A stretch of 64,000 nucleotides of DNA from Aestuariivirga sp. (GCA_031424315.1 JANPHF010000083.1:7137-71136); one strand, 5' to 3'; shown: positions 10,209-33,312, counted from the stretch's first letter. Numbers and translations: made by a program. Notes: generated by a model from the sequence alone, not told the origin.

Positions 10209-10667
10209 TCAAGGCTTCCAATGTTCAGAAATGGTAGCGCCGCGCAACACTTCGTCAATGCGCGCCCGCGAACCGGGCTTCAGATCAGGCGGCAATTCAT
10301 GCAGGTGGAAGAACCGTGCTTCGCGGATTTCAAAGCCTGGCTTGAAGGCACCTTGGGTGAATCTCCGCAACACATAACAAGCGACGTGATCGCCCGGAAA
10401 ATCCGCATCATTGGAGAAAATGCCATGGAACTGCAAAGGCTCAAGGGCCTCAACCGCAGCCTCTTCCATCAATTCACGCACCGCCGCTTGCGCCAAGGTC
10501 TCGCCCCGGTCCACGCCACCACCGGGCAGTGTCCATCCCGCAACATAACCGGGCCGCACCAGCAACACGCGTTCTTGCTCATCCACCACCACGACGCGGG
10601 CCCCCAGCGTCTTGCCGCGCATCAGCCGCGCATGCAACCGGAACAGCCAATAAGGAAAAATTTTCAA
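10209..10667 (-). CDS. Nudix hydrolase
   Basis: Nudix box GGGVDRGETLAQAAVRELMEEAAV. The ORF is open to 10757, but that would overlap the divergent gene start. TTG 10667 (AGGA 6 nt upstream) or ATG 10622 are more plausible starts. Confidence 0.7.
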   Translation of the reverse strand: MKIFPYWLFRLHARLMRGKTLGARVVVVDEQERVLLVRPGYVAGWTLPGGGVDRGETLAQAAVRELMEEAAVEALEPLQFHGIFSNDADFPGDHVACYVLRRFTQGAFKPGFEIREARFFHLHELPPDLKPGSRARIDEVLRGATISEHWKP

Positions 10668-10750
10668 GCCTAATCCTGTGCGAAACCAACCATTTGAACC
10701 ACCTCTTTTATGGGGTAAAGCTGATTTGAACAAACCGGAAAAATTGCTCG

Positions 10751-11890
10751 ATGACATCCGCCATCACCACCCGCCCTGTCGAAACCAAAGCTGACGAGAT
10801 CACTTTTCTGAAAGTACCCTTCCCCATCTACAAGGACGACAAGGCCTGGGTGGCGCCGCTGTTCCTCGAGCGATTGGAACACATCAGCCAGAAGAAGAAC
10901 CCTTATTTCCAGCACGCCAAGGGCCAGCTTTTTATCGCGGAGAAAAATGGCAAACCCGTAGGCCGCATTTCGGCGCAAGTCGATCAATTGCATATCGATC
11001 GCTACAAGGACGCCACCGGAAGCTTTGGCTTTCTCGAAGCTCAGGATGATCCCGCCATTTTTGCAGCGCTGTTCAAAACGGCGGAAGGCTGGTTGCGCGC
11101 CCAAGGCATGAAGCGCGCGCTCGGCCCCTTTTCATTTTCCATCAATGACGAAATTGGTTTGCTGATTGATGGCTTCGAAACCATGCCCAATATGTTGATG
11201 GGCCATGCCCCGCGCTATTATCAGGCGCGCGTGGAAGAACAGGGCTACGCCAAGGCCAAGGACGTGCTGGCCTATGAATTCGATAGCGTCAAAGGCCTGC
11301 CGCCCACCATGCGCAAGATGGTGGACCGCATGATGGCATCGGGCGATCTCACCGTGCGCCCGCTCAACAAGAAGAACATGGCCAGCGAAATTGACATCGT
11401 GATGGACATCTTCAACGACGCCTGGTCCGACAATTGGAATTTTGTGCCCTTCACGCGCGCTGAGGTGAACAACCTCGCCAATCTCTTCAAGATGCTGCTG
11501 GATGCAAAGGCCGTGCAGTTTTCATTTTGGAAGGGAGAGCCAGCAGCTTTCTGCCTGGCCATCGCCAATATCAATGAGTGGTTCCAGGGCCTGGATGGCA
11601 AAGTGCTGCCCTTTGGTTGGGCCAAGTTGCTGCCACGCGTGATGAGTGGCAGGTCCCGCTCAGTGCGCGTGCCACTCATGGGGGTCAAAAAGAAATATCA
11701 GGATGGCGCCATCGGCGCCGGCCTTGCGCTGGCCTGCATCCGCGCCTCATCGGACCATGTGATTTCCAAGGGCGTCACCCATGGCGAATATTCCTGGATC
11801 CTTGAAGATAATATGCGCGTGCGCCATATCCTCGAAAGCATGGGCAGCCGCATTTACAAAACCTACCGCGTTTATGAAAAGCAGCTGTGA
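10751..11890 (+). CDS. GNAT-like acyltransferase, candidate bacterial ceramide synthase (bCerS-like)
   Basis: 379-aa ORF, first gene of a translationally coupled operon that converges on spt. Size and context match the N-acyltransferase required for ceramide synthesis in Caulobacter. Homology is not verified. Confidence 0.55.
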   Translation: MTSAITTRPVETKADEITFLKVPFPIYKDDKAWVAPLFLERLEHISQKKNPYFQHAKGQLFIAEKNGKPVGRISAQVDQLHIDRYKDATGSFGFLEAQDDPAIFAALFKTAEGWLRAQGMKRALGPFSFSINDEIGLLIDGFETMPNMLMGHAPRYYQARVEEQGYAKAKDVLAYEFDSVKGLPPTMRKMVDRMMASGDLTVRPLNKKNMASEIDIVMDIFNDAWSDNWNFVPFTRAEVNNLANLFKMLLDAKAVQFSFWKGEPAAFCLAIANINEWFQGLDGKVLPFGWAKLLPRVMSGRSRSVRVPLMGVKKKYQDGAIGAGLALACIRASSDHVISKGVTHGEYSWILEDNMRVRHILESMGSRIYKTYRVYEKQL

Positions 11891-12780
11891 AATTCACGCT
11901 CGCCCACTTTTCAGATTTGCATCTCGGCCCGCTGCCTGCAGGGGCCGCCTTCCATGCCTTTCGTTCAAAGCGGTTGCTTGGTGCGCTGTCCTGGCACTTC
12001 CGCCGCAAATACATCCATTCCGCAGAAGTGGCTGAAGCCCTGCTCAAGGACATTCAATCCGCACACCCAACGCATGTGGCTTTCACAGGGGATGCCGCGA
12101 ACATTGCCAGCCCCCTGGAATTTCCCAAGCTGCGGGGGTGGCTCGACAGGCTGGGCAAGCCCGATTGGATTTCCTTCACCCCTGGCAACCACGATGCTTA
12201 TGTGAAGGTGAAACACGAAAAGGGCCTCGCCTTCTTCGCTCCCTTCATGACGGGCGACATGCGGCAGGAGCAGGCCTTCCCCTATGTGCGCCTGCGCCGC
12301 AATATTGCCCTGATCGGCTTGAACAGTGCCGTGCCGCGCTTCTATCACAGCGCCGAAGGTCGGTTGGGCCTTGATCAGCGCATCGCCCTGCGTCAGCGCC
12401 TTGCCGAACTTCGCGCCAAAGGCTTTTATCGCTGCGTGATGATCCACCACCCACCAGGCCCGGGCCTCGCCACCAAATTGCGCGCTCTTCAAGATGCAAG
12501 CGAACTGCGAGACATTCTCTGTGAAGAAGGCGTTGAACTTGTCATTCATGGTCACAATCACAAGCGCATGTTGAACTGGCTGGAAAAAGGCGGTTCGCGT
12601 GTGCCAGCTGTCGGCGTGCCTTCGGCCAGCGCCGATGAAGATCATCATCCTGCAGAATGGAACCTCTACACCATCGCCCGCACGGCAAAGGGCTGGCACA
12701 CCGTGGTTGACATCCGCCAGTGGGACAAGGCCAGCACATCATTCAAATCGGCTCAACGCTTTGAACTTGGTGCCGCATGA
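11887..12780 (+). CDS. metallophosphoesterase
   Basis: Motifs HFSDLHLG, GDAANI, GNHD, HHPP and GHNH. GTGA overlap with the upstream stop. Confidence 0.8.
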   Translation: MKFTLAHFSDLHLGPLPAGAAFHAFRSKRLLGALSWHFRRKYIHSAEVAEALLKDIQSAHPTHVAFTGDAANIASPLEFPKLRGWLDRLGKPDWISFTPGNHDAYVKVKHEKGLAFFAPFMTGDMRQEQAFPYVRLRRNIALIGLNSAVPRFYHSAEGRLGLDQRIALRQRLAELRAKGFYRCVMIHHPPGPGLATKLRALQDASELRDILCEEGVELVIHGHNHKRMLNWLEKGGSRVPAVGVPSASADEDHHPAEWNLYTIARTAKGWHTVVDIRQWDKASTSFKSAQRFELGAA

Positions 12781-13844
12781 GCCTCATTGCCAATCTATTG
12801 ACGCGCATGATTATGATCCGCTTCGCGGTGATCCTGCTTGGGCTTTCGGCCTTTGTGCTGACGCTGGAGGCGGTAAGCTATCTCAATGACATTCTGAAGC
12901 TGAACAGCAACCCGCTGATTGCAATGCTGCTTTATGGCATCATGCGCCTTCCTGCGACCCTTTCACTCTTCTTGCCTACGAGCCTGTTGCTGGCACTGCT
13001 GCTTTCGACCACGGAGTTGTCTTATCGCAATGAGCTCACCGCCATCTGGGCCACGGGCATTTCACCCACGCGCCTCATCCGCATGCTCATTCCCCTAGCG
13101 CTCGTGGTGGGCGGCATCAATTTCCTGATTGCCGACCAGGCGGTGCCGGCGGCAGCACCCTTCCTGAGATCCTGGGGCATTGGCGACTACGCCACCCGCA
13201 AATTCACCACCAATCCGGATGACCCGGTATGGATGCGCTCAGGCGATGACATCATGCGCGCTGACCGCGTAACTGATAATGGCGATGTGCTGGAAAATCT
13301 TATCATCTTCCGCCGTGAAAAAACCGGTGAGTTGCGTGAACAGGTTTTCGCCGATACAGCAGTTCAGAATGATGGCCGCTGGTTGCTCAAGAATGTAACT
13401 GTTTATTACGCCAATGGCGAAAAGCCGACGCATCTAGATCAGATGATCTACGACGGCGCCTTGCAGCTGGCTTCCAATAAGGTGGCTGGGCCTGAAGAGA
13501 TGACGACGCTGGAACTTTCCCGCTTCATCGCCAACAAGGGCTTCGGCGTGCGCCCGCAATATGTTTATGAAACTTGGTGGTATAAGCGCCTCACGCCGCC
13601 GGTGATTGCGATCGTGATGATCATGCTTTGCGTGCCTCTGGGCACCTATTTCCGCCGCGGCGGCGGTTTGGGTGGCATCTTCGTGGCAGGTGTGTTGATG
13701 GGCTTCGTTTATTTCGTGGGCGACGGCGTGGCCATGACCTTGGGCGAAACCGGCCGCGTGGCGCCGTGGCTTGCGGCCTGGGGCCCAATCCTCCTCTTTG
13801 CCGCGCTTGGCTTCGCTCTCTTGGCGCGCACGGATCACGTATGA
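12777..13844 (+). CDS. LptF/LptG (YjgP/YjgQ) family permease, unpaired
   Basis: 355 aa. Has the N-terminal 3 TM, a periplasmic beta-jellyroll-like middle (WMRSGDDIMRADRV...GRWLLKNVTVYY) and C-terminal 3 TM. ATGA overlaps on both sides. Confidence 0.75.
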   Translation: MSLIANLLTRMIMIRFAVILLGLSAFVLTLEAVSYLNDILKLNSNPLIAMLLYGIMRLPATLSLFLPTSLLLALLLSTTELSYRNELTAIWATGISPTRLIRMLIPLALVVGGINFLIADQAVPAAAPFLRSWGIGDYATRKFTTNPDDPVWMRSGDDIMRADRVTDNGDVLENLIIFRREKTGELREQVFADTAVQNDGRWLLKNVTVYYANGEKPTHLDQMIYDGALQLASNKVAGPEEMTTLELSRFIANKGFGVRPQYVYETWWYKRLTPPVIAIVMIMLCVPLGTYFRRGGGLGGIFVAGVLMGFVYFVGDGVAMTLGETGRVAPWLAAWGPILLFAALGFALLARTDHV

Positions 13845-14800
13845 CGCGCAAGGCCGGAGTTCTCATTAATCCAACGGCAGGCCGCGGCAATGGCAAGGGC
13901 CTGCGCTTGGCAGCAGCTCTTGGCAGCGCCACCCATGTCGATGTGCGCCTGATGGAGAGTTTTCAGCAGATCCGGCAACACCTTCTCGACATGGCCCAAG
14001 AGGGCGTGACCGATCTCTTCATTTCCTCCGGCGACGGCACCGTTCAGGCTGTTCAAACTCTTTTGGCCGAAGAGCACATCTTTGAAACATTCCCGCGCCT
14101 GGCTCTGCTGCCACATGGCACAACCAATCTTACAGGCATCGATGTTGGCTTCCGGATTCGCTCCATCGCTGGGCAGGCGAATTACATTTCCACGCTGCCC
14201 CAGCCCAAAGTGCAACGCCGCCATAGCCTGCGCGTGGCCAATCCGGCGGATGGCCAGCCACGCCATGGCATGACGCTGGGTGCAGGTGCGGCCGCGCGCG
14301 GCACGCGCCATGCACAGGAAGCCTTCAACAACAAGGGCGTGAAGGGCGCTTTCGCCAGCTTCGCCACCATCGCCGGCGGCCTGGCCCGCGCTTCTGTGAG
14401 CCGCGCTGAGGGCGATGATCCAGGCAGGCTGGATCGGCCCTGCGAAATGGCAATCCGGTACGAGGGCCACGACGTCACCAAGGGGCCACAACTCATGTTC
14501 GTCGCCACAACTCTGCGTCACCTCTTCTTCAGAACGCGGCCCTTCTGGGGCGGCAAGCGCGGTCCCATTCGCGCGTCGGTATTTCCTCATCCGACACCCA
14601 ATATTCTGCGCTGGGCCCTGCCCATGATGTATGGCGGCGAATTGCGCTCAGCGCCCGCAGGCGCCCACAGCTTCTCTGGCACCGGCTTTGAAATCGCCAG
14701 CGCCGAACCTTATGTGATGGATGGCGAGTTTTTTGACGGGCCGGATCAGGGCCTGCTTCAAGTCGCGGCAGGTCCCGAGTGGGAATTCATCACCGGCTGA
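13841..14800 (+). CDS. diacylglycerol/sphingosine kinase-fold lipid kinase (candidate ceramide kinase)
   Basis: ATG 13841 overlaps the lptFG-like stop. Contains N-terminal GVLINPTAGRGNG and the SSGDGTVQAV (GDGT) motif of the DAGK catalytic domain. Confidence 0.7.
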   Translation: MTRKAGVLINPTAGRGNGKGLRLAAALGSATHVDVRLMESFQQIRQHLLDMAQEGVTDLFISSGDGTVQAVQTLLAEEHIFETFPRLALLPHGTTNLTGIDVGFRIRSIAGQANYISTLPQPKVQRRHSLRVANPADGQPRHGMTLGAGAAARGTRHAQEAFNNKGVKGAFASFATIAGGLARASVSRAEGDDPGRLDRPCEMAIRYEGHDVTKGPQLMFVATTLRHLFFRTRPFWGGKRGPIRASVFPHPTPNILRWALPMMYGGELRSAPAGAHSFSGTGFEIASAEPYVMDGEFFDGPDQGLLQVAAGPEWEFITG

Positions 14801-14801
14801 A

Positions 14802-15983
14802 CTAGCCGCGCACGGCGTGCTTGAAAATGTCGATGATGCGGTCGATCTCCGCATCCGTATGCGCCGCCGAAACCGAGCAGCGCAGCAAGCACAGGCGGTT
14901 TGGTGTGCCGGGCGGCACAGCCATGTTCACATAAACCCCGCCTTGGAATAGCGCGTTCCATTTTGCAATGGTGGTGAGTTCGTCGGGCATCTTGACCGCG
15001 ATCACCGGGCTCACTTCATCGCAACCCATGTCAAAGCCAAGGCCCTCGAGGCCTTTGTAGAGCCGCTCGGAATTGGCCCACAGCTTGGCGCGGCGCTCCG
15101 GTTCCGCCTTCAACACACGCAGTGCAGCGATGGATGTTGCGATGGATGCAGGCGATGAAGACGCGGTGAACATATAGGGCCGCATGGCATAGCGCAACGT
15201 TTCAAACAGCGGGTGATTACCTGCGCCAAAGCCGCCAATGGCGCCCACGCTTTTTGAGAATGTGCCGATGACGAAATCCACGTCCTTCTCAAGCCCCGCC
15301 TCGTCACCAAGGCCACGGCCATTGGGCCCAAGCACGCCAAAGGAATGGGCATCATCCACCAGAAGCTGGAACTCAAACTTCTTCTTCAATTCAACGAAAT
15401 CCTTGAGCGGCGCGCGGTCGCCCAGCATTGAATAAATGCCTTCGAGAACCACAAGACGGCCGCCTTCCGTGTCGTCGCGTGCCATGCGCTTGGCCAAATC
15501 TTCCGCATCATTGTGGCGGAAGCGCACCAACTTGGCGCCTGAAAGCGTGCAGCCATCATAAATCGAGGAATGCGAATCCGAGTCGAGATAGATCGTGTCC
15601 TTCGGCCCCGCGAGGCCAGAGAGCATGCCGAGATTAGCTTGATAACCGGTGGTGAAAACAATGCAGTGCTGCAAGTCGAGGAAGGATGCCAGTTCCTTCT
15701 CCAGTTCCTTGTGCATGGCGAAGGAGCCATTGGCGATGCGCGAACCTGTGGTGCCCGTGCCGAATTCTTCCAGCGCCTTCTGACCGGCTGCAATGCAACG
15801 CTTGTCGAAAGTGATGCCCATGTAGTTATTGGTGCCCGCCAGCAGAATCTCGCGGTTGCCCACGATTGCGTGGGTCGGCGAAATCATCTTGTCATTGGTG
15901 ACGCCCAGGCCGTTGATGCCCATATCCAGCATCCGTTGGAAGCGGTCAGCAATGCCACGGTGCTTTTCGAGAAGATCAACCAT
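14802..15983 (-). CDS. spt: alpha-oxoamine synthase, serine palmitoyltransferase-like
   Basis: 393 aa with the PLP-lysine motif GTFSKSVGAIGG. Sits immediately downstream of a dedicated ACP, a reductase and an acyl-AMP ligase. Confidence 0.75.
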   Translation of the reverse strand: MVDLLEKHRGIADRFQRMLDMGINGLGVTNDKMISPTHAIVGNREILLAGTNNYMGITFDKRCIAAGQKALEEFGTGTTGSRIANGSFAMHKELEKELASFLDLQHCIVFTTGYQANLGMLSGLAGPKDTIYLDSDSHSSIYDGCTLSGAKLVRFRHNDAEDLAKRMARDDTEGGRLVVLEGIYSMLGDRAPLKDFVELKKKFEFQLLVDDAHSFGVLGPNGRGLGDEAGLEKDVDFVIGTFSKSVGAIGGFGAGNHPLFETLRYAMRPYMFTASSSPASIATSIAALRVLKAEPERRAKLWANSERLYKGLEGLGFDMGCDEVSPVIAVKMPDELTTIAKWNALFQGGVYVNMAVPPGTPNRLCLLRCSVSAAHTDAEIDRIIDIFKHAVRG

Positions 15984-15986
15984 GCG

Positions 15987-16235
15987 TCAGCCCTTGTTCA
16001 ATTGAGATTGCACAAAGGCGGCAAGCTCGCCCACCGTGCGGATGTTGGAAACGGCGTTCATCGGAATTTCAATGTCGAAATGGTCTTCCACTTCCATGAT
16101 GAAATCGAGAACGCCAACGGAATCGATATTCAGCTCGGCCGGAATGTCAGTCGCCTCGGTGAGTGCCAGGTTTTCAGGATTGAAGGGCTTAAGCAAATCA
16201 ACGAGAACGGGAACAATTTCAGAAATCTGAGTCAT
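15987..16235 (-). CDS. acyl carrier protein (dedicated)
   Basis: 82 aa with the phosphopantetheine site NIDSVGVLDFIMEVE. Confidence 0.85.
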   Translation of the reverse strand: MTQISEIVPVLVDLLKPFNPENLALTEATDIPAELNIDSVGVLDFIMEVEDHFDIEIPMNAVSNIRTVGELAAFVQSQLNKG

Positions 16236-17173
16236 GACGCGCTTCTAGTCTCTTGAGAAAGGGGCGGCAACCAGCCGTGTTGGCGATACCAGTTGAGGGT
16301 TTCAGCAAGGCCTTCAGAAAGCCCAATGGCACGCTCACGCGGCCAGATTTCGCCACCCGCCGTCCAGTCGCGGTGATAAAGCTCATTCACCTTGCCGGGA
16401 TTGGTAAGCGAAGGCCTGTTGGTGACGCGCGAATATCCCTCCATCGCCGCAGCGGCCGCATAGGCCACAGGCTTAGGAATGTAGACAACGCGCTGCGGCA
16501 GCCCGGTGAGGCGGCGGCTTTCGGCGGCCAACATGGTCCAGTCATAGCTGCCATTGCGATCATCGAGTTCAACCAGCCCGGTGCGCGGCGAGGCCACGGC
16601 TTCCGCCGCCACGCGCGCAAAATCACGCACATGCATCAGGGCAAAACGTGCATCCTTTCGCCCCGGCACAAAAGCAGTCTTCGCCTGCAACGCCTTCATC
16701 AAAGGCAGCGTGGCCTTGTCGCCTGGGCCATAGATCGCAGGCGGGCGCAGGACCAGAACTTCGGGGCCACCATATTGACCGATGAGGAAATGCTCCGCCG
16801 CCGCTTTGGAGGCACCATAGGATGAGAGTGCAGGTTCACGCGCCGCCATCGAGGAAACAAACACGAAGCGCTTGAGGCCCGCCCCACGCGCGGCGGCATA
16901 GAGCTTGCGCGTGCCTTCCAGATTGGCTGCGAAGAAGCCAAATCGGTTGCGTGCCGAAATGGCGCCCGCAACATGCAACACCGCGTCTGCGTCTTTCACC
17001 AAGGCCGCCAGCGCCGCTTCATCTGCAAGGTCGCCCTTGACGATTTGAACTTTGCGCCCGTCCAGCGCTTCAGGCTTGCGCGCGAGGGCTGCAACCTCGT
17101 GCCCCTGCTCCAGCAATGATTCCAGAATGAGAGGCCCCGAGAACCCCGTGGCCCCTGTAAGTGCAACGCGCAT
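16232..17173 (-). CDS. NAD-dependent epimerase/dehydratase-fold reductase (CerR-like)
   Basis: Start ATG 17173 gives MRVALTGATGFSGPLI (GxxGxxG). ATGA overlap with the ACP start. The longer ORF to 17248 overlaps the upstream gene. Confidence 0.75.
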   Translation of the reverse strand: MRVALTGATGFSGPLILESLLEQGHEVAALARKPEALDGRKVQIVKGDLADEAALAALVKDADAVLHVAGAISARNRFGFFAANLEGTRKLYAAARGAGLKRFVFVSSMAAREPALSSYGASKAAAEHFLIGQYGGPEVLVLRPPAIYGPGDKATLPLMKALQAKTAFVPGRKDARFALMHVRDFARVAAEAVASPRTGLVELDDRNGSYDWTMLAAESRRLTGLPQRVVYIPKPVAYAAAAAMEGYSRVTNRPSLTNPGKVNELYHRDWTAGGEIWPRERAIGLSEGLAETLNWYRQHGWLPPLSQETRSAS

Positions 17174-17189
17174 CAGGAAATGTCCAGAT

Positions 17190-19010
17190 TCACTCAACCG
17201 GCGCGGCGAAAACCACCATCTCGCCAGCGAGATATTTTGCGCGCGCACCCGCGCGTGAAAGCTTGCCAGACGAAGTAAACGGCAGCGAACGTGGCGCCAC
17301 CAACTCTACTTTACAATCAACCCCAGAGCCCTGATGAACCAGCTTGGCCACTTCGCGGCGCAAACTGTCTTGCTCGACGGTTTCGACCGCGCGGCATTCC
17401 ACCAGCACCACAACTTCATCGTCGCCATCATCGCCTTCAACAGCAAATGCGGCCACGTCGCCGGATTTGAGATGGGCGTATTGCTCCGCCGTCCATTCAA
17501 TGTCCTGCGGCCAGATATTGCGGCCATTGTGCAGGATCAGGTCTTTGACGCGGCCGGTGATGACAATCTCATCGCCCAGCAAATAGCCCATGTCTCCCGT
17601 GTCAAGGAACCCGTCTGGGCTAATCGTGTCGCTGGTGGCTTCGGCATTGTTGTAATAGCCGGACATTACGCTGGGGCCCTTGACAAAAATGCGCCCGATC
17701 TCACGTTCGCCCAACACCGATCCAGCCGAGTTGCGAACCTCCATGGTGTGGCCGGGAATCACGCGCCCACACACCACATAGCCACGCGAGTCAGCGCCAC
17801 CCGCCTGCGCAGGCGTGGCCAAATTCTCATTGCGCACAGCGTGGCGCGAGACGTGATCGACGCGCAGCGGCTGGCCAGACCTCGGGAAGGAAATCGCCAG
17901 CGTGGATTCTGCCATGCCATAGCAAGGCAGGAATGCAGTGGGCGCAAACTTCGCCACTTCCAACGCCTTGCCAAATTCAGCCAACACATCGGGCCGCACC
18001 ATGTCGCCACCAATGCCCGCGCTACGCCAGCAGCTGAGATCAAGTTTCGCCGCTTCCGCCCCAATGCGCTTGGCAGCAAGATCATAGCCGAATGTGGGTG
18101 AGAAAGAGATGGTGCAGCGGTTATCTGAAATCAGCTTCAGCCACAGGCCCGGGCGGCGTGCAAAGGCCGTGGTGGCAAGATAATCCACGCTGAATTGGCC
18201 CAGAAGCGGCGTCAGGCAGAAACCCACAAGCCCCAAGTCGTGATAGAGTGGCAACCAGGAAAAACCCCGGTCCCCCGGTTTGGCGTCCGTTCCAAACACT
18301 GCAATTGCCCGCGCATTGTCCATGATCGCGCGCTGCGAAATCAGAACGCCTTTTGGTGCCGAGGTAGAGCCCGATGAATATTGGATATAGGCCACGTCAT
18401 CGCCCGCAAAGCCCTGCAGCTTTGCAATGGCTTCCGGCTTGGCGGCCAGTTCATCATGCGTCAGCACAATTTTCACGCCGGCCAATTGTGCCGCGCCCTT
18501 GATGCTATCAACTTGCTCAGCCGGCGTGACAATGGCGCTGGCATCAGCCGCCTTCAACATCCCCGCAATGCGCTGCTCATAGGCTTCGCGCCCGCCGATA
18601 TACATGCTGTAAGGCACCGGGCATGGGATGAGGCCCGCATATTGGCACGCAAAGAAGGTTACAACGAATTCCGGGCCGGTCTCGGCCACAATGGCCACGC
18701 GCTCTTTGCGGTGCAGGCCAATAGACATGAGCTTGCGTGCCGTCATCAAGGCTCGGCGTCGCAATTCGGAGAACGGCAACACATGAGACAGCGCGCCGCG
18801 GCCGGAATAGAAATTGAAGCCGGTCACGCCCTGCGCCGCATAGTCAAGGCCTTCAGCCAACGTGGAAAAATCGGAGATCCGCAACGGCAAATCGCGGTTG
18901 AGGGTTGGCGTCTTCACCAACACATTTTCCGTCTTTAGAGTTTCAGTAAGTGCTGAAGTTCCGCTCACGATTCCAAACCCGCCTAATTTCTCAACGGCTG
19001 GTTCTAACAA
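17190..19010 (-). CDS. fatty acyl-AMP ligase / acyl-ACP synthetase
   Basis: AMP-binding motif YIQYSSGSTSAPKGV and C-terminal TGDMGY...GRVKD. Start uncertain (TTG at 19010 is the ORF maximum). Confidence 0.8.
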   Translation of the reverse strand: MLEPAVEKLGGFGIVSGTSALTETLKTENVLVKTPTLNRDLPLRISDFSTLAEGLDYAAQGVTGFNFYSGRGALSHVLPFSELRRRALMTARKLMSIGLHRKERVAIVAETGPEFVVTFFACQYAGLIPCPVPYSMYIGGREAYEQRIAGMLKAADASAIVTPAEQVDSIKGAAQLAGVKIVLTHDELAAKPEAIAKLQGFAGDDVAYIQYSSGSTSAPKGVLISQRAIMDNARAIAVFGTDAKPGDRGFSWLPLYHDLGLVGFCLTPLLGQFSVDYLATTAFARRPGLWLKLISDNRCTISFSPTFGYDLAAKRIGAEAAKLDLSCWRSAGIGGDMVRPDVLAEFGKALEVAKFAPTAFLPCYGMAESTLAISFPRSGQPLRVDHVSRHAVRNENLATPAQAGGADSRGYVVCGRVIPGHTMEVRNSAGSVLGEREIGRIFVKGPSVMSGYYNNAEATSDTISPDGFLDTGDMGYLLGDEIVITGRVKDLILHNGRNIWPQDIEWTAEQYAHLKSGDVAAFAVEGDDGDDEVVVLVECRAVETVEQDSLRREVAKLVHQGSGVDCKVELVAPRSLPFTSSGKLSRAGARAKYLAGEMVVFAAPVE

Positions 19011-19090
19011 GCAGGGGGGCGCAGGCGGAAATCACATGGTGTTTCAGTTTGTAACCTGAGGCTGCGTCAATCTGACAGCCTTGAATGTCA

Positions 19091-19612
19091 TTAGAACTTC
19101 ACAAGCCCAACAGCCAGGCCCCAAGCTACAAGGCCCAGAACGCCGAACAACAGGCCAGTTATCCACACATAGACCAACTCACCCAGTCCGTAGTGGCGCG
19201 CACCATCTCTGACGCGGTGTGCAATGCCTGCAGCTTGCTTGTCATGCGCCACCAGCCGGTGCGCCATGTGGCGCAACGCCTGGGCGTGCATGGCCTGCGC
19301 CTCGGTACTTTCAAACACGCTCTCCCGGCCTTGCGGGCCATCTTGCATCAAGCGATAGGTCTTAGGGTTGGGCTCCATCTCAATGAATGAAATGAGATCG
19401 AGCCACAGCTTTGGCTTTTCGGAATCCTGAAGGTTGAGTTCAAACAGGCCAAGCGCCTCATCGTGGCCAGCAAGATCACGTTTGAGTGCATCGCGCAGCG
19501 CCAGCAAACGCAGGCTGCGGGCATCACGCAGCGAAACCACGGCTTCAAGCTGCGCCGCTTCGGCCAGCCTTGCCTGCTTCAATGCCTGCGTGAACGCATC
19601 AGCTTTACTCAT
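19091..19612 (-). CDS. hypothetical tail-anchored membrane protein
   Basis: 173-aa ORF. Has a helical, charged N-terminal part and a single C-terminal TM (WITGLLFGVLGLVAWGLAVGLV). Confidence 0.45.
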   Translation of the reverse strand: MSKADAFTQALKQARLAEAAQLEAVVSLRDARSLRLLALRDALKRDLAGHDEALGLFELNLQDSEKPKLWLDLISFIEMEPNPKTYRLMQDGPQGRESVFESTEAQAMHAQALRHMAHRLVAHDKQAAGIAHRVRDGARHYGLGELVYVWITGLLFGVLGLVAWGLAVGLVKF

Positions 19613-19696
19613 TAACCAACTCTTGTTTCAAACTGAGCCAGATTTCACTGAACCCAATAGCCCAAGCCTGCCGCAGCAGCTTTTGTGCCAACAATC

Positions 19697-20446
19697 CTAA
19701 TTTTCGCGCTGCCGCGTGAAAGGCCGCAAAATAAGGCGCGCCAACGGCTGATCATGCAATCCCTCCACGCCCATGTCCATGTCGGGCGCACGCTGGTGGC
19801 GACTTATGCTCAGGAAAATGCGGTCCCATACCGAAAGAATCGTGGAATAGTTGGAATCCGTGTCCGCCCGCAGCGCATGGTGATGCAGCCAATGTATGGA
19901 AGGTGTGACAATCACATAGGACAGCACGCGTTCAAACCCGGGTGGCAGCTTCACATTGGAATGTTGAAACAGTGCCGCCACAATAATCAGTGTTTCAAAC
20001 ACCACGACAGTTCCAATAGGAACACCGACAAGCCAGATCACGCCAGCGCGCGCGACGGACGAAAGCGCCACTTCACCAAAATGAAAGCGCAACGCCGTGG
20101 TTGTATCCAAAGTTTCGTCAAGGTGATGCACCTCGTGAAAGCGCCAGAGCAACGGCACCACATGGTTCAGCCGGTGCCACACATAGATCCAAAGATCGAG
20201 CACCAGGAGATCAAGCGCCATGTTCCACCACGAAGGCCGTAGGTTGATTGCATGAGCTGCTGCAAATTGTGACAGCGGCAACACGACGAGCGGCCCGATC
20301 AGGAAATTCGCGCCGGCGAGCGAGAAATTGCGGGTCAGCCGGCTAACGCTTTCTTTCACGCGCACGGCAGGAAACACCCGTTCCAAGATGAACAAGGCCA
20401 TCAATGTCGCCAAGACAATGCCCGCCTTGTTTGTGAAAAACTGCAT
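19697..20446 (-). CDS. fatty acid hydroxylase / sterol desaturase family di-iron membrane enzyme
   Basis: His boxes HRLNH, HEVHH and HWLHHH. ATG 20446 is preceded by GGGAG at 5 nt. Confidence 0.8.
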   Translation of the reverse strand: MQFFTNKAGIVLATLMALFILERVFPAVRVKESVSRLTRNFSLAGANFLIGPLVVLPLSQFAAAHAINLRPSWWNMALDLLVLDLWIYVWHRLNHVVPLLWRFHEVHHLDETLDTTTALRFHFGEVALSSVARAGVIWLVGVPIGTVVVFETLIIVAALFQHSNVKLPPGFERVLSYVIVTPSIHWLHHHALRADTDSNYSTILSVWDRIFLSISRHQRAPDMDMGVEGLHDQPLARLILRPFTRQREN

Positions 20447-20545
20447 GCTTACTCCCGCTACCATCATAGCGCGCCACCCGCCTTGCCCAAATCACTTCGC
20501 CGCGATAGGTTGCCGCGTGGGGGTTCTAGCCATTTGGAGGCCATT

Positions 20546-21136
20546 TTGAACATCAAGCTCAGCGCATTCGCCGCAGCCGCAACCCTGCTTCTTGCATCTT
20601 CCGCCCATGCTGATTGCCTGGCGGAAATTCAGGCCATCATGCAGAACCATCTCAAAGCGGGGCCTTATCACACCACCATGGAATCCGACATGGCTGGCAT
20701 GAAGCGCACCACGGAAATTGACGTGATCTTGCCCTCCTCCTTTCACATGAAGGCGGCCAACATGGAAACCATCATGTTGAAGGAAGGCACGTGGATGAAC
20801 ATGAATGGCAAGTGGATGGTCATGCCCGGCAACATGTCCGGCATGATGGAACAGAACATCAAGAACGGCATGGAAAGCGGCTTCAAGAACATGGCCAATG
20901 TTCAGTGCGAGGGGCCGCAAACGTTCGAAGGCAAGACGCTGAACAAATATGAAATGGATTCAACGGGCGAAGCCATGGGCATCAAGGCCACCAGCCACAT
21001 CACCATGTATACAAGCGACAACGGGCTGCCGCAGGTCATGTTGGTGGATGGTGAAGCCATGGGCCACAAGAGCCACACCGTGCAACACATCACCTATGAT
21101 CCATCAATCACCATCACGCCGCCCAAACTGAAATAA
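20546..21136 (+). CDS. secreted methionine-rich protein
   Basis: TTG 20546 sits 5 nt after GGAGG. Signal peptide NIKLSAFAAAATLLLASSAHA. I counted 21 Met in the ~175-aa mature part (e.g. WMNMNGKWMVMPGNMSGMMEQ). Confidence 0.6.
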   Translation: MNIKLSAFAAAATLLLASSAHADCLAEIQAIMQNHLKAGPYHTTMESDMAGMKRTTEIDVILPSSFHMKAANMETIMLKEGTWMNMNGKWMVMPGNMSGMMEQNIKNGMESGFKNMANVQCEGPQTFEGKTLNKYEMDSTGEAMGIKATSHITMYTSDNGLPQVMLVDGEAMGHKSHTVQHITYDPSITITPPKLK

Positions 21137-21200: not shown

Positions 21201-21277
21201 TGGTAGCGGGAGAGGGAGTTGAACCCCCGACCCCAGGATTATGATTCCCGTGCTCTAACCAACTGAGCTACCCCGCC
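21201..21277 (-). tRNA. tRNA-Met (anticodon CAU), elongator-like; Ile2-lysidine type not excluded
   Basis: The reverse complement GGCGGGGTAGCTCAGTTGGTTAGAGCACGGGAATCATAATCCTGGGGTCGGGGGTTCAACTCCCTCTCCCGCTACCA folds as a cloverleaf with a CAT anticodon and encoded CCA. Confidence 0.9.
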
Positions 21278-21334: not shown

Positions 21335-22135
21335 TCAAGCGGCGGTTGCGCTGTCGGTTTCATCATCGCCCTTGTCACCGATAACGAAAGTGCGCCACAG
21401 CGAAATCGAGGCGAAATAGAGCGACGAGCCAGCAAAGAGCACCAGTTCAAGTTTGTATATCCAGTCATCATAGTTGGGGTTGCGGCCCGAAATCACCAGG
21501 CTCAGCGTCAGCGCCGCCCACAGCACTGTCATGGGAACGGTGACATTGCGCCAATGGGTGACGCGCAGGGGGTGAACGAACTTGACTGGAATGAAAGTCA
21601 GCACGGCAAGGAATATGATGGTGACGAAATTCACCAGCCAGCCAGTGTTGAACAAATAGAAATACAGCACCACCACATTCCAGATCGCCGGAAAGCCCAC
21701 GAAATAATAATCGAAACTCTTCATGTTCACATTGGCGAAGGTGTAGAGCGAGACAGCCATCACGAGCGCCGCCATGGTGAGACTCCAAGTCTGGCCCATG
21801 AAGTAAAGTGGCACAGGCACCATGTTGAACCAATAGATCATCAATGCCGGAACGGCCACATAGGTGAAGAAGTCGATCACCAGATCCAGCGCCGTGCCAT
21901 CAAAATTGGGCGTGTATTCTTTCACGCGCGCGCGCCGCGCCAGGGTGCCATCCACACCATCGACAAATAGCGCCAAACCCAGCCACATGAAGGCGGCCAC
22001 CGCATCGCCTTTCAAAACTGAGACCAGTGCGAGAAAGCCCAGAACGATGCCTGAGGCCGTAAAGGCATGGACACTCCAGGCCACGCCCTTCTTGATTTCA
22101 CGCTCCAAACTCGGCTTCAGGTGGATCTTCGCCAT
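21335..22135 (-). CDS. pcs: phosphatidylcholine synthase (CDP-alcohol phosphatidyltransferase family)
   Basis: Motif DGVDGTLARRARV...DGTALDLVID in a multi-TM protein. ATG 22135 is preceded by GGGAGAA. Confidence 0.8.
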   Translation of the reverse strand: MAKIHLKPSLEREIKKGVAWSVHAFTASGIVLGFLALVSVLKGDAVAAFMWLGLALFVDGVDGTLARRARVKEYTPNFDGTALDLVIDFFTYVAVPALMIYWFNMVPVPLYFMGQTWSLTMAALVMAVSLYTFANVNMKSFDYYFVGFPAIWNVVVLYFYLFNTGWLVNFVTIIFLAVLTFIPVKFVHPLRVTHWRNVTVPMTVLWAALTLSLVISGRNPNYDDWIYKLELVLFAGSSLYFASISLWRTFVIGDKGDDETDSATAA

Positions 22136-22199
22136 ACTTTCTCCCGCCGGGCAAAGGTTCAGCCTTGGCGCCAGTTGTTGTTTCAACCACTATAGAAAG

Positions 22200-22871
22200 T
22201 CAGGCCGAAAGCGCAACCTGCCCTGTACGGCGGAATTCCAGCATTGTGAAAAAGCCCATCGGCTTCACCTGCCTGATGGAGACCAAGCGCAGTTGCTCGC
22301 AGTGCAAAAGCGTGTCGACAGGAAATTCGGGCCGCCAGCCAAGTTTGGTGGCCTGTTTGGCGAGGCCCTTTTCAATGGCCCCGCGCAAGCCGGTTTCAAC
22401 GCTGAAGTGATTGACGATGAGCACGGTGCCGCCCGGGCGCGTCACCCGCGCCAATTCGGCAATTGCCTTCTGCGGCTCCGGCACCACAGTGAGCACATAC
22501 ATCGCCACAGCAATGTCGAAACTGGCGTCGGGGAAATCCATCGCGCAGGCATCCATTTCCACCAGCGCTTCGATGTTGCTGGCGCCCGCCTTCTTTGCGC
22601 GCACGCGCGCCCGTGACAGCATGTCAGCAGAAAGATCAATGCCGGTGACAGAAAGCTGCGGCCCATAGTGCGGCAGGGCAAGACCCGTTCCCACACCTGC
22701 ATCAAGAAGACGGCCCGAAAAAGCATTGGCACGGGCTGTGGCCTGCTCCACCCCTGCGCTCACCAACTTGCCAAAGGTGGCGTCATAGACAGGCGCCCAG
22801 CGTTTATAGGCCTTCTTGACCTCGGCGGCGGGCATGGCGTGCAATTGCGTGTTCAAGACGAACCCTTTCAT
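22200..22871 (-). CDS. class I SAM-dependent methyltransferase, phospholipid N-methyltransferase-like
   Basis: SAM motif LLDAGVGTGL and N-terminal KAYKRWAPVYDATFG resemble Rhodobacter-type PmtA. Lies adjacent to pcs. Confidence 0.55.
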   Translation of the reverse strand: MKGFVLNTQLHAMPAAEVKKAYKRWAPVYDATFGKLVSAGVEQATARANAFSGRLLDAGVGTGLALPHYGPQLSVTGIDLSADMLSRARVRAKKAGASNIEALVEMDACAMDFPDASFDIAVAMYVLTVVPEPQKAIAELARVTRPGGTVLIVNHFSVETGLRGAIEKGLAKQATKLGWRPEFPVDTLLHCEQLRLVSIRQVKPMGFFTMLEFRRTGQVALSA

Positions 22872-27030: not shown

Positions 27031-27632
27031 TGTGGGCCTTCATCGTCACATCGATCATCATCGAGCTGACGCCGGGGCCGAACATGACCTGGCTGGCAGT
27101 GCTCGGCGCCACGCGCGGGCGTATGGCGGCATTGGCTGCCGTGGCGGGTGTTGCGATTGGCTTGGCACTCGCGGGTTTGGTGGCGGGCCTTGGCCTCACC
27201 GTATTGTTCGACAATTTCCCGAGCTTGCTCACGGCCCTTCGCGTGGCAGGCACGCTCTATCTTTTCTATCTGGCCTATGACGCCTGGACGGATGCGGATG
27301 GCGAAGAGGTGGTGACCGAAAAGCCCAACAGCGCCTATTTCTATCAAGGCTTTGTTTCCAACGCGTTGAACCCCAAGGCCTATCTGTTCTACGCGGCCAT
27401 CCTGCCGCAGTTCCTGACAATCCCTGATCATCCGGATCAGCAGATCGCGCTGCTCACCGCCGTCTATGTGGCCATTGCCACCACCATCCATGCTTGTATT
27501 GGTCTGGCAGCGGGCAGCATTGCGGGCTGGCTGGAACATTCACCGCAAGCGGTGATGATCCGCCGTGCCCTGGCCGTGGCCATTGCACTGGCTGCTATTT
27601 GGTTTTTCTATTCGACAGGACATCTGAAATGA
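27030..27632 (+). CDS. LysE family amino-acid exporter
   Basis: 200-aa multi-TM protein with N-terminal ELTPGPNM and NPKAYLFY motifs. Start overlaps the upstream stop. Confidence 0.8.
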   Translation: MWAFIVTSIIIELTPGPNMTWLAVLGATRGRMAALAAVAGVAIGLALAGLVAGLGLTVLFDNFPSLLTALRVAGTLYLFYLAYDAWTDADGEEVVTEKPNSAYFYQGFVSNALNPKAYLFYAAILPQFLTIPDHPDQQIALLTAVYVAIATTIHACIGLAAGSIAGWLEHSPQAVMIRRALAVAIALAAIWFFYSTGHLK

Positions 27633-28360
27633 AACTTCCCGCCCACACCAACATCGCCATGTGGTCTGGCCCGCGCAATATTTCCACCGCCATGATGTAT
27701 GCCTTTGCCAACCGCGAAGACTGCGTGGCCTGGGATGAGCCATTTTATGGGGCCTATCTGAAAGAAACTGGCCTTCCCCACCCGATGCGGTCGGAAATTC
27801 TGGCGGCCTGCGAGAATGATTGGCGCAAAGTCCAAGCCACTTGCATCGCACATGCCGCCAAACCAGTGTTCTATCAGAAGCACATGACGCACCATATGCT
27901 GCCGCAGTTTGATCGCACATTCATCCGCACACTGACGAATGCCTTCCTGATCCGCAGCCCTGAAAAAGTTCTGGCCTCCTACGCCAAGAAGCACGATGAC
28001 GTGACGTTGCATGCCATCGGCTTTGTGGAACAGGCTGAGATATTCGACGAAGTGGCACAGCATCTGGGCCACGCACCCCCAGTGGTGGATGCGGACTTGC
28101 ATCTCGCCAACCCGCGCCACAGCCTGCAGCATCTTTGCCACGCGCTGGGCATTCCCTTCCGCGAAGCCATGCTGGCTTGGCCCAAGGGGCCAAAGGCCTG
28201 CGACGGCGTGTGGGCGCCGCATTGGTATAATGCGGCCTGGGCCTCAACCGGATTTGCAAAGCCAGAAGGCGAAACGCCCGCCCTACCCGCAGGTTTGCAG
28301 CGCATTGCCGATCAGGCCCGCCCGCTTTATGAGCGGCTGAGAAAACACGCCATCGAGTGA
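27629..28360 (+). CDS. sulfotransferase-like P-loop family protein
   Basis: ATG 27629 (ATGA overlap). 243 aa. The N-terminus MWSGPRNISTAMMYAF resembles the conserved soluble sulfotransferase-family proteins of alphaproteobacteria. Assignment is tentative. Confidence 0.45.
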   Translation: MKLPAHTNIAMWSGPRNISTAMMYAFANREDCVAWDEPFYGAYLKETGLPHPMRSEILAACENDWRKVQATCIAHAAKPVFYQKHMTHHMLPQFDRTFIRTLTNAFLIRSPEKVLASYAKKHDDVTLHAIGFVEQAEIFDEVAQHLGHAPPVVDADLHLANPRHSLQHLCHALGIPFREAMLAWPKGPKACDGVWAPHWYNAAWASTGFAKPEGETPALPAGLQRIADQARPLYERLRKHAIE

Positions 28361-29235
28361 CCATGACCAAAAACCAGCAGCGCACCCGCCGCGTCAACAT
28401 CAACAATCGCACGCTTTACACGCGCGGCCTGAAGCCCGGCTTCTGGCGCGACATCAATCACCGCGCCATGACAGCGCGCTGGCCCGCCTTCTTTCTCTCT
28501 GCGGCGGTGATCTTCTTCTGCTTCAATCTGGCGTTCGCGGCACTCTATGCGCTGGGTGACAAGCCTGTAGCAAACACTCCTGATGATGGCTTGATCTGGC
28601 TGCTCTATTTCTCTTTCGAAACCCTGGCCACCGTGGGTTACGGCGACATGCACCCGCAAACCCATTGGGGCCACGCGGTGGCAACAGTTGAGATTTTCAC
28701 CGGCCTCAGCTTCCTGGCGGTTTACACGGGCCTCATCTTCGCACGCTTCTCGCGGCCGATGGCGCGATTCATGTTTGCCCGCAATGCTGTGATCGGACCT
28801 GAAAATGGCAAGCCCACGCTGATGATCCGCGTGGCCAATGAGCGCCAGAATAGCATTTCCGGCGCCACGGCGCGCCTCTGGCTGCTGCGGAATGTGACTG
28901 ATGCCTCAGGCAAGGAAGGCCGCCGCTTCATCGAATTGAAATTGCTGCGCACCGAAAATCCGGTCTTCGCCCTGTCATGGACGCTCTATCACATCATTGA
29001 TGAAAAGAGCCCGCTGCATGATGCAACGCCTGACAGCCTGAGCGCGGTGGAGGGCCTGATCATTCTTACCCTCACGGGCGTGGATGACTCATCTGGCATG
29101 GACTTGCATGCCCGCCACACCTATTCCACGTCGCAAATCCTGTGGAACCACAATTTCATGGATATCATCGACCGCATGCCTGATGGCGCGGCCGTGATTG
29201 ACTATGGCAAGCTGCATGATGTGGTGAAGGTTTGA
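28357..29235 (+). CDS. inward-rectifier-type potassium channel (KirBac-like)
   Basis: Selectivity filter TVGYGD between two TM helices, followed by a cytoplasmic Ig-like Kir domain. Start is GTG 28357 (GTGA overlap) or ATG 28363. Confidence 0.8.
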   Translation: MTMTKNQQRTRRVNINNRTLYTRGLKPGFWRDINHRAMTARWPAFFLSAAVIFFCFNLAFAALYALGDKPVANTPDDGLIWLLYFSFETLATVGYGDMHPQTHWGHAVATVEIFTGLSFLAVYTGLIFARFSRPMARFMFARNAVIGPENGKPTLMIRVANERQNSISGATARLWLLRNVTDASGKEGRRFIELKLLRTENPVFALSWTLYHIIDEKSPLHDATPDSLSAVEGLIILTLTGVDDSSGMDLHARHTYSTSQILWNHNFMDIIDRMPDGAAVIDYGKLHDVVKV

Positions 29236-30075: not shown

Positions 30076-30117
30076 GAAATCCCCCATCCGGGGAAGTGGA
30101 TTTATAAGGGGAAAACC

Positions 30118-30837: not shown

Positions 30838-30956
30838 TCACATCACGCTTCTGTCACAATCAGAAGCTATGGAATGCACCACAAGAGATCGCCCGATAGA
30901 ATTGCGGGTATAGGCAGAGGTTTGTAGGGTTTCCCTCCCCCTGCCCGAAGTTTCAA

Positions 30957-32292: not shown

Positions 32293-32322
32293 GAAGCATG
32301 CACGAGGCAAAAAACTGAATTT

Positions 32323-33309: not shown

Positions 33310-33312
33310 GCC

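What the first reader, a model, noticed from the sequence alone, without database searches (positions are those of the whole stretch)
10751..20467. Two converging operons form an apparently complete bacterial ceramide/sphingolipid supercluster
Seen on the minus strand: an acyl-AMP ligase (YSSGSTSAPKG), a Rossmann reductase (GATGFSG), a dedicated ACP (DSV) and an alpha-oxoamine synthase (GTFSKS) are packed with overlapping or 3-16 nt junctions. Seen on the plus strand: a 379-aa GNAT-like acyltransferase heads a four-gene operon with ATGA/GTGA overlaps that ends 1 nt from the spt stop. A di-iron fatty-acid hydroxylase (three His boxes) lies just downstream. Established: in Caulobacter crescentus ceramide is made by Spt, a dedicated ACP, an ACP-synthetase, the CerR reductase and the bCerS acyltransferase. 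Inference: this window encodes that pathway plus tailoring functions, in an organism whose other markers look Hyphomicrobiales-like, a group not generally treated as sphingolipid producers.
Basis: partly seen in the sequence, partly recalled or inferred. Interest (0 to 1): 0.7.

Follow-up and report, generated by a model that had tools for sequence, protein, structure and literature searches.

The report
Trimmed Caulobacter-type ceramide gene cluster
This stretch of an Aestuariivirga-like (Hyphomicrobiales) genome carries all five genes known to make bacterial ceramide plus a lipid kinase, an exporter-like permease and a hydroxylase; it is a real but ordinary, shortened copy of a gene cluster already described in Caulobacter and E. 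coli BL21.

Summary

**Identity of the genes**
- The oxoamine synthase is a true serine palmitoyltransferase. It passes the NCBIfam Spt equivalog cut-off (571 bits, cut-off 500). Sphingomonas SPT structures score about 430 bits, against about 200 for Kbl and BioF.
- The 379-aa protein is 42% identical over its full length to E. coli BL21 YghO, the published orthologue of Caulobacter bCerS. It models as a tandem GNAT.
- AasR, CerR and the ACP also match the BL21 sphingolipid operon.

**Source and conservation**
- The window is collinear with the Aestuariivirga litoralis genome, so the Hyphomicrobiales assignment holds.
- At least 45 Aestuariivirgaceae, Parvibaculaceae and Rhodospirillales genomes carry the cluster.
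- Most relatives carry a longer convergent operon whose gene content matches Caulobacter CC_1152-1161.
- The window, A. litoralis and its closest relatives keep only bCerS, phosphoesterase, one LptG-like permease and the kinase. I therefore predict ceramide and ceramide-1-phosphate, not ceramide phosphoglycerate.

**Novelty**
- A 2023 paper already lists spt in "a few Rhizobiales", including A. litoralis. Novelty is low: this is a new member of a known kind.
- A conserved 173-aa membrane protein in the cluster remains unexplained.

The parts
10751..11890 (+). bCerS-like N-acyltransferase (379 aa, tandem GNAT); first gene of the + strand operon
   Evidence: 42% identity over 376 aa to E. coli BL21 YghO, E 2e-105. 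YghO/ECD_02850 is listed as the orthologue of CC_1154 in PMC9386255. AlphaFold model pLDDT 87; best PDB fold matches are tandem GNATs (MAB_4324, MshD, FemX). No Pfam or NCBIfam model hits it. dN/dS 0.07 against L003.
11887..12780 (+). Calcineurin-like metallophosphoesterase, same family and cluster position as Caulobacter CC_1158
   Evidence: Pfam Metallophos E 1e-9. Retained next to bCerS in Hyphomicrobiales and Rhodospirillales loci. CC_1158 is described as a calcineurin-type phosphoesterase that contributes to CPG2 formation.
12777..13844 (+). LptG-like permease (single copy), candidate sphingolipid exporter component
   Evidence: Pfam LptF_LptG E 4e-65. NCBIfam LptG 199 bits (cut-off 240) and LptF 101 bits. 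24% identity to the lptG paralogue in the BL21 sphingolipid cluster. Relatives carry a second Lpt gene that is absent here.
13841..14800 (+). DAG-kinase-family lipid kinase, candidate ceramide kinase (CpgB/CC_1160-like)
   Evidence: Pfam DAGK_cat E 7e-12, and below every YegS-type NCBIfam cut-off. The SGDG, PHGTTN and DGEFF motifs are conserved with orthologues that sit next to spt. dN/dS 0.30.
14802..15983 (-). Serine palmitoyltransferase (Spt)
   Evidence: NCBIfam NF047599 571 bits (cut-off 500); bioF 317, Kbl 291, ALAS 196. PDB best hits are Sphingomonas SPT at 432/418 bits, against Kbl 214. 49% identity to the functional BL21 Spt. H138, D210, H213, K244 and R368 align with SpSPT H159, D231, H234, K265 and R390.
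15987..16235 (-). Dedicated acyl carrier protein (AcpR-like)
   Evidence: Pfam PP-binding with a DSV serine. Below all housekeeping AcpP cut-offs. 37% identity over 43 aa to BL21 AcpR, E 9e-11. Lies immediately upstream of spt, as in Caulobacter and BL21.
16232..17173 (-). NAD(P)-dependent SDR/epimerase-family reductase (CerR-like); the longest ORF extends to 17248
   Evidence: Pfam Epimerase E 1e-27. 35% identity over 301 aa to BL21 ECD_02852, E 5e-48, with the alignment starting at the internal Met. Lies between aasR and acpR as in the reference clusters.
17190..19010 (-). Fatty acyl-AMP ligase / acyl-AcpR synthetase (AasR-like); probable true start near 18923
   Evidence: NCBIfam PRK09192 756 bits (cut-off 600). 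43% identity over 555 aa to BL21 AasR, E 1e-161. The A. litoralis orthologue is called at 576 aa.
19091..19612 (-). Conserved 173-aa protein of unknown function with a C-terminal transmembrane helix (u173)
   Evidence: No Pfam or NCBIfam hit. Only 46 clusters in the 5.8-billion-protein database. Always sits directly upstream of aasR in Aestuariivirgaceae and Parvibaculaceae loci. dN/dS 0.21. The structure model is of low confidence, pLDDT 68.
19697..20467 (-). Di-iron fatty-acid hydroxylase family protein (three His boxes), candidate ceramide hydroxylase
   Evidence: Pfam FA_hydroxylase E 8e-26. OlsE 83 bits, far below its cut-off of 475. His boxes at residues 98, 111 and 192. Present upstream of u173-aasR in most Hyphomicrobiales loci but absent from A. 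litoralis.

Best explanation
The region is a functional, streamlined version of the proteobacterial (Caulobacter-type) sphingolipid cluster in an Aestuariivirga-like alphaproteobacterium. The inferred pathway runs as follows. AasR activates a free fatty acid and loads it on the dedicated carrier AcpR. Spt condenses acyl-AcpR with serine to give 3-oxosphinganine. The tandem-GNAT bCerS adds the N-acyl chain, and CerR reduces the 3-keto group to give dihydroceramide. The order of those last two steps is disputed in the literature. The DAG-kinase-like enzyme then phosphorylates ceramide to ceramide-1-phosphate. The di-iron hydroxylase adds a hydroxyl to the acyl chain or the long-chain base. The LptG-like permease takes part in moving the lipid towards the outer membrane. 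The phosphoglycerate head-group genes of Caulobacter (equivalents of CC_1161, CC_1159, CC_1153 and CC_1152), the HIT gene and the second Lpt permease are absent from this lineage's cluster. The predicted end products are therefore (hydroxy)ceramide and ceramide-1-phosphate rather than CPG or CPG2. What is shown here is the gene identities, homology, synteny and purifying selection. What is inferred is every enzymatic step, the end product, and the roles of the phosphoesterase, the permease, the hydroxylase and u173.
For: Family assignments. Spt passes the NCBIfam equivalog cut-off and sits closest to solved Spt structures, with its catalytic residues kept. There are full-length matches to all five genes of the E. 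coli BL21 cluster. The BL21 Spt, AcpR and AasR were shown to make 3-oxosphinganine, and its yghO and epimerase genes are listed as orthologues of CC_1154 and CC_1164 (PMC9386255). bCerS has a tandem-GNAT fold. The cluster is conserved in about 45 Hyphomicrobiales genomes and in further Rhodospirillales genomes. In relatives the operon holds LptF/G x2, HIT, Metallophos, CDP-OH_P_transf, DAGK, an NTP transferase and a 285-aa nucleotidyltransferase-like protein. That is the composition reported for CC_1152-1161. None of the six extra genes occurs anywhere in the 64-kb window. The same short form is found in cultured A. litoralis. dN/dS is 0.06-0.30 for all ten genes, and the kinase motifs are intact.
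Against: There is no lipid data for any Aestuariivirgaceae. The Caulobacter proteins themselves could not be compared. Orthology of the kinase and the phosphoesterase to CpgB and CC_1158 rests on family, position and the published description only. The kinase has SGDG instead of the GGDG motif noted for CpgB. The missing head-group genes could lie elsewhere in the genome, since only 64 kb was seen. A single LptG-like gene without a partner has no demonstrated function. The closest relative L007 has lost the kinase, which hints that this step is dispensable.
Confidence: 0.8

Rival explanations
1. The organism makes the full Caulobacter-type ceramide phosphoglycerate lipids (CPG, CPG2). The head-group genes have simply moved elsewhere in the genome, so the cluster here is not functionally trimmed.
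For: Sphingolipid genes are scattered in Sphingomonas and Zymomonas. In some relatives (L013, L025, L032, L048) even bCerS is not within 10 kb of spt. Only 64 kb of the genome was available.
Against: None of the six genes lies in the window. The same short form occurs in A. litoralis, L003 and L007, with intermediate forms in L023, L040 and Anderseniella. That pattern looks like stepwise loss rather than relocation. The tight 1-nt and overlapping junctions show clean excision.
Confidence: 0.15
2. The Spt-like enzyme and its partners make a related but non-sphingolipid amino lipid. Examples are a sulfonolipid/capnine-type product or another alpha-oxoamine product.
For: Alpha-oxoamine synthases are hard to assign by sequence, and cysteate acyltransferase appears among the PDB hits at 217 bits. 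Arg378 of S. paucimobilis SPT is Val here.
Against: The score is above the curated Spt equivalog cut-off and twice that of any non-Spt family. The functional BL21 Spt also lacks Arg378. The complete partner set of the ceramide pathway is present.
Confidence: 0.03
3. The cluster is a decaying remnant that no longer makes a lipid.
For: The lineage has lost six genes, and L007 has also lost the kinase. The kinase, CerR and u173 are much more diverged than Spt and bCerS (55-61% against 90% identity to L003).
Against: All ORFs are intact with translationally coupled junctions. dN/dS is 0.06-0.30, and catalytic motifs are retained.
Confidence: 0.02

Closest known systems
Caulobacter crescentus sphingolipid cluster CC_1152-CC_1168 (aasR, cerR, acpR, spt, cerS/bcerS, cpgABC, lptF2/G2; PMC11324152, PMC9393093, PMC10331486)
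   Same: It has the same five ceramide genes, with aasR-cerR-acpR-spt in the same order. A DAGK-type kinase sits next to spt. A calcineurin-like phosphoesterase and an LptF/G-type permease lie in the same neighbourhood. Relatives of the window (for example L008) reproduce nearly the whole CC_1152-1161 gene content.
   Different: The window lacks equivalents of CC_1161, CC_1159, CC_1157, CC_1153, CC_1152 and one of the two Lpt permeases. No CC_1166-1168 equivalents were seen either, although these were not specifically searched for. It adds a PF04116 hydroxylase and the u173 protein. bCerS sits in a convergent operon that abuts spt. No direct sequence comparison was possible.
E. coli BL21(DE3) yghO / aasR-epimerase-acpR-spt / lptG-lptF cluster (ECD_02850-02856; PMC9386255)
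   Same: All five ceramide genes are clustered, at 35-49% identity over essentially full length (the ACP aligns over 43 of 82 residues), with Lpt paralogues adjacent. The BL21 Spt, AcpR and AasR are biochemically validated.
   Different: BL21 has no kinase, phosphoesterase, hydroxylase or u173. It has two Lpt genes and a flippase-like gene. yghO is divergent from, not convergent with, the spt operon.
Aestuariivirga litoralis GCA_015714715.1 locus (L083); listed as SPT-positive in PMC10411912
   Same: It is collinear with the window from MnmA to the 687-aa gene. It has the same trimmed operon (bCerS-MPE-LptG-kinase) converging on spt, and Spt is 86% identical.
   Different: It has no hydroxylase gene between u217 and u173.
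Sphingomonas SPT (PDB 2jg2, 2x8u)
   Same: These are the best structural relatives, with conserved PLP lysine and His/Asp/Arg catalytic residues.
   Different: The window enzyme lacks Arg378, is ACP-coupled by its gene context, and scores below the NCBIfam 'AlphaP' Spt cut-off but above the 'BetaP' one.

Membership tests
Serine palmitoyltransferase (bacterial Spt) | Scores above the curated Spt equivalog threshold and above BioF, Kbl and ALAS | tested here: met
   NF047599 571 bits, cut-off 500. bioF 317, Kbl 291, ALAS 196. PDB: Spt 432 bits against Kbl 214.
Serine palmitoyltransferase (bacterial Spt) | PLP-binding Lys and catalytic His, Asp, His and Arg residues | tested here: met
   H138, D210, H213, K244 and R368 align with H159, D231, H234, K265 and R390 of 2jg2. 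R378 is not kept, and it is also absent from the functional BL21 Spt.
Serine palmitoyltransferase (bacterial Spt) | Condenses serine with an acyl thioester to give 3-oxosphinganine | not testable with these tools
   Needs an enzyme assay.
AcpR (sphingolipid-dedicated ACP) | Small PP-binding protein with a DSx serine, distinct from housekeeping AcpP, encoded directly upstream of spt | tested here: met
   PP-binding E 1e-8. All AcpP models are below their cut-offs. 3-nt gap to spt. E 9e-11 to BL21 AcpR. No phylogeny was made.
AasR (acyl-AcpR synthetase) | Fatty acyl-AMP ligase of the PRK09192 subfamily, homologous to characterised AasR, in the spt operon | tested here: met
   756 bits against cut-off 600. 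43% identity over 555 aa to BL21 AasR.
CerR (ceramide / 3-ketosphinganine reductase) | Extended SDR with an N-terminal GxxGxxG motif, homologous to CC_1164/ECD_02852, lying between aasR and acpR | tested here: met
   Pfam Epimerase. 35% identity over 301 aa to ECD_02852. Gene order. Comparison with CC_1164 itself was not done.
bCerS (bacterial ceramide synthase, CC_1154 family) | About 380-aa GNAT-type acyltransferase homologous to CC_1154/YghO and genomically linked to spt | tested here: met
   42% identity over full length to YghO. Published orthology of YghO and CC_1154. Tandem-GNAT fold. Linked to spt in many genomes. CC_1154 itself was unavailable.
CpgB-type bacterial ceramide kinase (CC_1160) | DAGK/LCB5 catalytic domain with a GGDG ATP-binding motif, encoded beside spt | tested here: inconclusive
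   DAGK_cat E 7e-12. The motif is SGDG here and in Hyphomicrobiales orthologues, and GGDG in most of the Rhodospirillales orthologues aligned. The position matches Caulobacter. There is no sequence comparison with CpgB and no activity data.
Ceramide phosphoglycerate (CPG/CPG2) pathway | Presence of CC_1161 (nucleotidyltransferase-like), CC_1159 (CDP-alcohol transferase), CC_1153 and CC_1152 equivalents | tested here: not met
   All are present in L008 and many relatives, but there is no tblastn hit anywhere in the 64-kb window. The Pcs-like CDP-alcohol enzyme at 21335-22186 is a phosphatidylcholine-synthase relative and is not linked to the cluster in most genomes.
Lpt-like sphingolipid export (LptF2/LptG2) | A pair of LptF/LptG paralogues in the cluster | tested here: not met
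   Only one LptF_LptG gene is present. Relatives and the reference clusters have two.

The most novel reading that the evidence does not exclude
The Aestuariivirga lineage has remodelled the ancestral anionic-sphingolipid cluster into a minimal system. This system would make hydroxylated ceramide and ceramide-1-phosphate and export it with a single LptG-like permease, acting as a homodimer or paired with housekeeping LptF. It would also use the lineage-restricted tail-anchored protein u173 as a new, uncharacterised component of bacterial sphingolipid synthesis or transport.
Probability: 0.25. Interest if true: 0.4.

Novelty: new member of a known kind. Interest (0 to 1): 0.25.

Why it matters
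The finding adds a well-supported genomic prediction. Aestuariivirgaceae and Parvibaculaceae, which are freshwater, soil and marine Hyphomicrobiales, would be ceramide producers. It also shows a graded series from a full Caulobacter-like cluster to a four-gene remnant within one family.

That series is a natural experiment on which accessory genes go with which head group. It names a cultured strain, A. litoralis, in which the prediction can be tested by lipidomics. It does not change the current understanding of the pathway.

Tried and rejected
- **Caulobacter proteins for direct comparison.**
  - The Nat Chem Biol paper is not held.
  - PDB has no bCerS or CpgB structure.
  - The single genome-contig scan returned only the 80 closest Spt loci, none from Caulobacterales.
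  - Two metagenome scans found nothing. They used the published primer that I assumed, from its order in the primer table and its translation, to be the CC_1158 forward primer, once exactly and once as a codon-degenerate pattern.
  - The E. coli BL21 cluster, found by guessing coordinates, was used instead.
- **Locating the source contig.** An exact look-up of the Spt protein gave no locus.
- **Promoter and terminator scan of 10-21.5 kb.** It found fewer sites than in shuffled sequence, so it is uninformative.
- **Structure of u173.** The model had pLDDT 68, too poor for a fold search.
- **The Pcs-like gene at 21335-22186 as a possible ceramide head-group transferase.** I rejected this. It is a phosphatidylcholine-synthase relative and is not linked to the cluster in most genomes.
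- **The GT2 at 31033-32292 as a possible ceramide glycosyltransferase.** It has only a weak GT21 hit, better general GT2 hits, lies 11 kb away in a low-GC island, and was not followed further.
- **Polar-lipid data for A. litoralis.** No paper was found in the library.


Full report

On the + strand there are four genes: 10751-11890, 11887-12780, 12777-13844 and 13841-14800. They are linked by GTGA, ATGA and ATGA overlaps. The last stop codon lies 1 nt from the stop of the minus-strand spt gene (14802-15983).

On the minus strand the order is:
- ligase, 17190-19010;
- reductase, 16232-17173 (longest ORF to 17248);
- ACP, 15987-16235;
- spt, with junctions of 16, -4 and 3 nt.

All the quoted motifs and the three His boxes are present. 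Two details differ from the finding. The hydroxylase (19697-20467) is transcriptionally upstream of the ligase, not downstream. An additional conserved 173-aa ORF (19091-19612) lies between them.

**Identity of the parts.** Pfam and NCBIfam give these assignments:
- Metallophos for 11887-12780.
- LptF_LptG for 12777-13844, closer to LptG but below both equivalog cut-offs.
- DAGK_cat for 13841-14800.
- PP-binding for the ACP, which is below every housekeeping AcpP cut-off.
- Epimerase/SDR for the reductase.
- The PRK09192 fatty acyl-AMP ligase subfamily at 756 bits (cut-off 600).
- FA_hydroxylase for 19697-20467.

The oxoamine synthase scores 571 bits on the NCBIfam serine palmitoyltransferase equivalog NF047599 (cut-off 500). 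It scores 317 for BioF, 291 for Kbl and 196 for ALAS. Against solved structures it scores 432/418 bits with Sphingomonas SPT and 214 or less with Kbl and BioF. The catalytic His, Asp, His, Lys and Arg residues of S. paucimobilis SPT are kept. Arg378 is not kept, but the functional E. coli BL21 enzyme also lacks it.

The 379-aa protein has no curated model. It belongs to a very large family: 6,560 clusters at 50% identity with E ≤ 0.001. It models confidently (pLDDT 87) as a tandem GNAT like MshD, MAB_4324 and FemX.

**Comparison with characterised systems.** Caulobacter sequences could not be obtained. The E. coli BL21(DE3) sphingolipid cluster was retrieved instead. Its Spt, AcpR and AasR were shown biochemically to make 3-oxosphinganine. 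Its yghO and epimerase genes are listed as orthologues of CC_1154 (bCerS) and CC_1164 (CerR) in PMC9386255. BLASTP results were:

| Window protein | BL21 partner | Identity | E-value |
|---|---|---|---|
| 379-aa protein | YghO | 42%, full length | 2e-105 |
| Spt | Spt | 49% | 4e-134 |
| ACP | AcpR | 37% over 43 aa | 9e-11 |
| Reductase | ECD_02852 | 35% over 301 aa | 5e-48 |
| Ligase | AasR | 43% over 555 aa | 1e-161 |

**Host and distribution.**
- The nearest named homologues are Aestuariivirga proteins.
- A genome scan with Spt returned 80 loci. The top roughly 50 are Aestuariivirga/Aestuariivirgaceae, other Hyphomicrobiales MAGs, Parvibaculaceae, Anderseniella and Thermopetrobacter, at 65-90% identity. 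Rhodospirillales (55-60%) and Nitrospira (52-55%) follow.
- The locus in the A. litoralis genome is collinear with the window from MnmA through the Pcs-like gene, u217, u173 and the whole cluster to the NUDIX, GNAT and 687-aa genes. This confirms the Hyphomicrobiales assignment and argues for vertical inheritance within the family.

**Comparative anatomy.** The minus-strand unit FAH-u173-AasR-CerR-ACP-Spt is conserved across the Hyphomicrobiales loci.

The convergent operon varies. In most relatives (L008, L010, L012, L021, L026, L027, L029, L030, L035, L039, L043, L055 and several Rhodospirillales) it runs as follows:
- bCerS;
- NTP-transferase;
- a 236-aa protein;
- Metallophos;
- HIT;
- Lpt;
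- Lpt;
- CDP-alcohol transferase;
- DAGK;
- a 285-aa nucleotidyltransferase-like protein.

That is the composition published for CC_1152-CC_1161. Intermediate forms keep both Lpt genes only (L023, L040, Anderseniella).

The window, L003 and A. litoralis keep just bCerS-Metallophos-LptG-like-DAGK. L007 has also lost the kinase. None of the six extra genes is anywhere in the 64-kb window.

All ten window genes are under purifying selection against L003, with dN/dS of 0.06-0.30. The kinase retains the motifs shared by its orthologues.

**Mechanism.** By homology, AasR loads a fatty acid on AcpR. Spt makes 3-oxosphinganine. bCerS N-acylates and CerR reduces; the order is debated (PMC11087976). Together these give dihydroceramide. 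The kinase probably makes ceramide-1-phosphate, as CpgB does (PMC10331486). With the head-group genes gone, ceramide phosphoglycerate is not expected. The hydroxylase, the phosphoesterase, the single LptG-like permease and u173 have inferred or unknown roles.

**Novelty.** PMC10411912 states that spt occurs in "a few Rhizobiales" and lists A. litoralis as SPT-positive. [quoted passage not shown] The window is thus another clustered example in a lineage already flagged. What is new is the trimmed architecture and the lineage-specific additions, FAH and u173. No lipid data for the family were found.

**Verdict.** This is a correct and well-read finding. Biologically it is a new member of a known kind, and interest is low to moderate.

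Noticed in passing
window 19091-19612 (-): A 173-aa protein with a long N-terminal helix, a small beta domain and a C-terminal transmembrane helix. It matches no known family and has only 46 clusters in the 5.8-billion-protein database. It always sits just upstream of aasR in Aestuariivirgaceae and Parvibaculaceae sphingolipid clusters and is under purifying selection.
   Followed up: partly
window 21335-22186 (-) and 22200-22871 (-): A phosphatidylcholine-synthase-like CDP-alcohol transferase (222 bits, below the NCBIfam cut-off of 300) sits next to a PmtA-like phospholipid N-methyltransferase. These would be two routes to phosphatidylcholine side by side. They lie next to the sphingolipid cluster, beyond the u217 gene and tRNA-Met (21201-21277). 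The Pcs-like gene is also adjacent in A. litoralis.
   Followed up: partly
window 30000-34300: A low-GC island (GC 0.48-0.53 against about 0.58) holds a GT2 glycosyltransferase (31033-32292) and two FkbM-type methyltransferases. The GT2 has a weak hit to the ceramide-glucosyltransferase family GT21 and better hits to cellulose-synthase/PgaC-like families. The island may be a horizontally acquired glycan module.
   Followed up: no
window 34335-39434: A 1,462-aa RTX protein with 26 calcium-binding nonapeptide stretches (35046-39434, -) lies next to a BTLCP transglutaminase-like cysteine protease (34335-34994, +).
   Followed up: no
window 27494-29235: A Sulfotransfer_5 protein is followed, with overlapping ends, by a prokaryotic Kir-like (inward-rectifier type) potassium channel.
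   Followed up: no
window 20483-21136 (+): A 217-aa secreted, very methionine-rich protein with no family hit. It is conserved next to the hydroxylase/u173 side of the cluster in L003, L007 and A. litoralis.
   Followed up: no
window 10209-10757 (-) / 10751 (+): The longest NUDIX ORF overlaps the bCerS start by 7 nt head-to-head, so its real start is probably near 10622. NCBI annotates bCerS homologues in this clade as 'dATP pyrophosphohydrolase'. That name does not fit the tandem-GNAT fold modelled here and looks like a misannotation.
   Followed up: partly
L007, L041-L047 (Hyphomicrobiales / Anderseniella loci): These relatives lack the DAG-kinase-like gene altogether while keeping bCerS, the phosphoesterase and Lpt gene(s). 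Phosphorylation of ceramide is therefore repeatedly dispensable in this group.
   Followed up: partly
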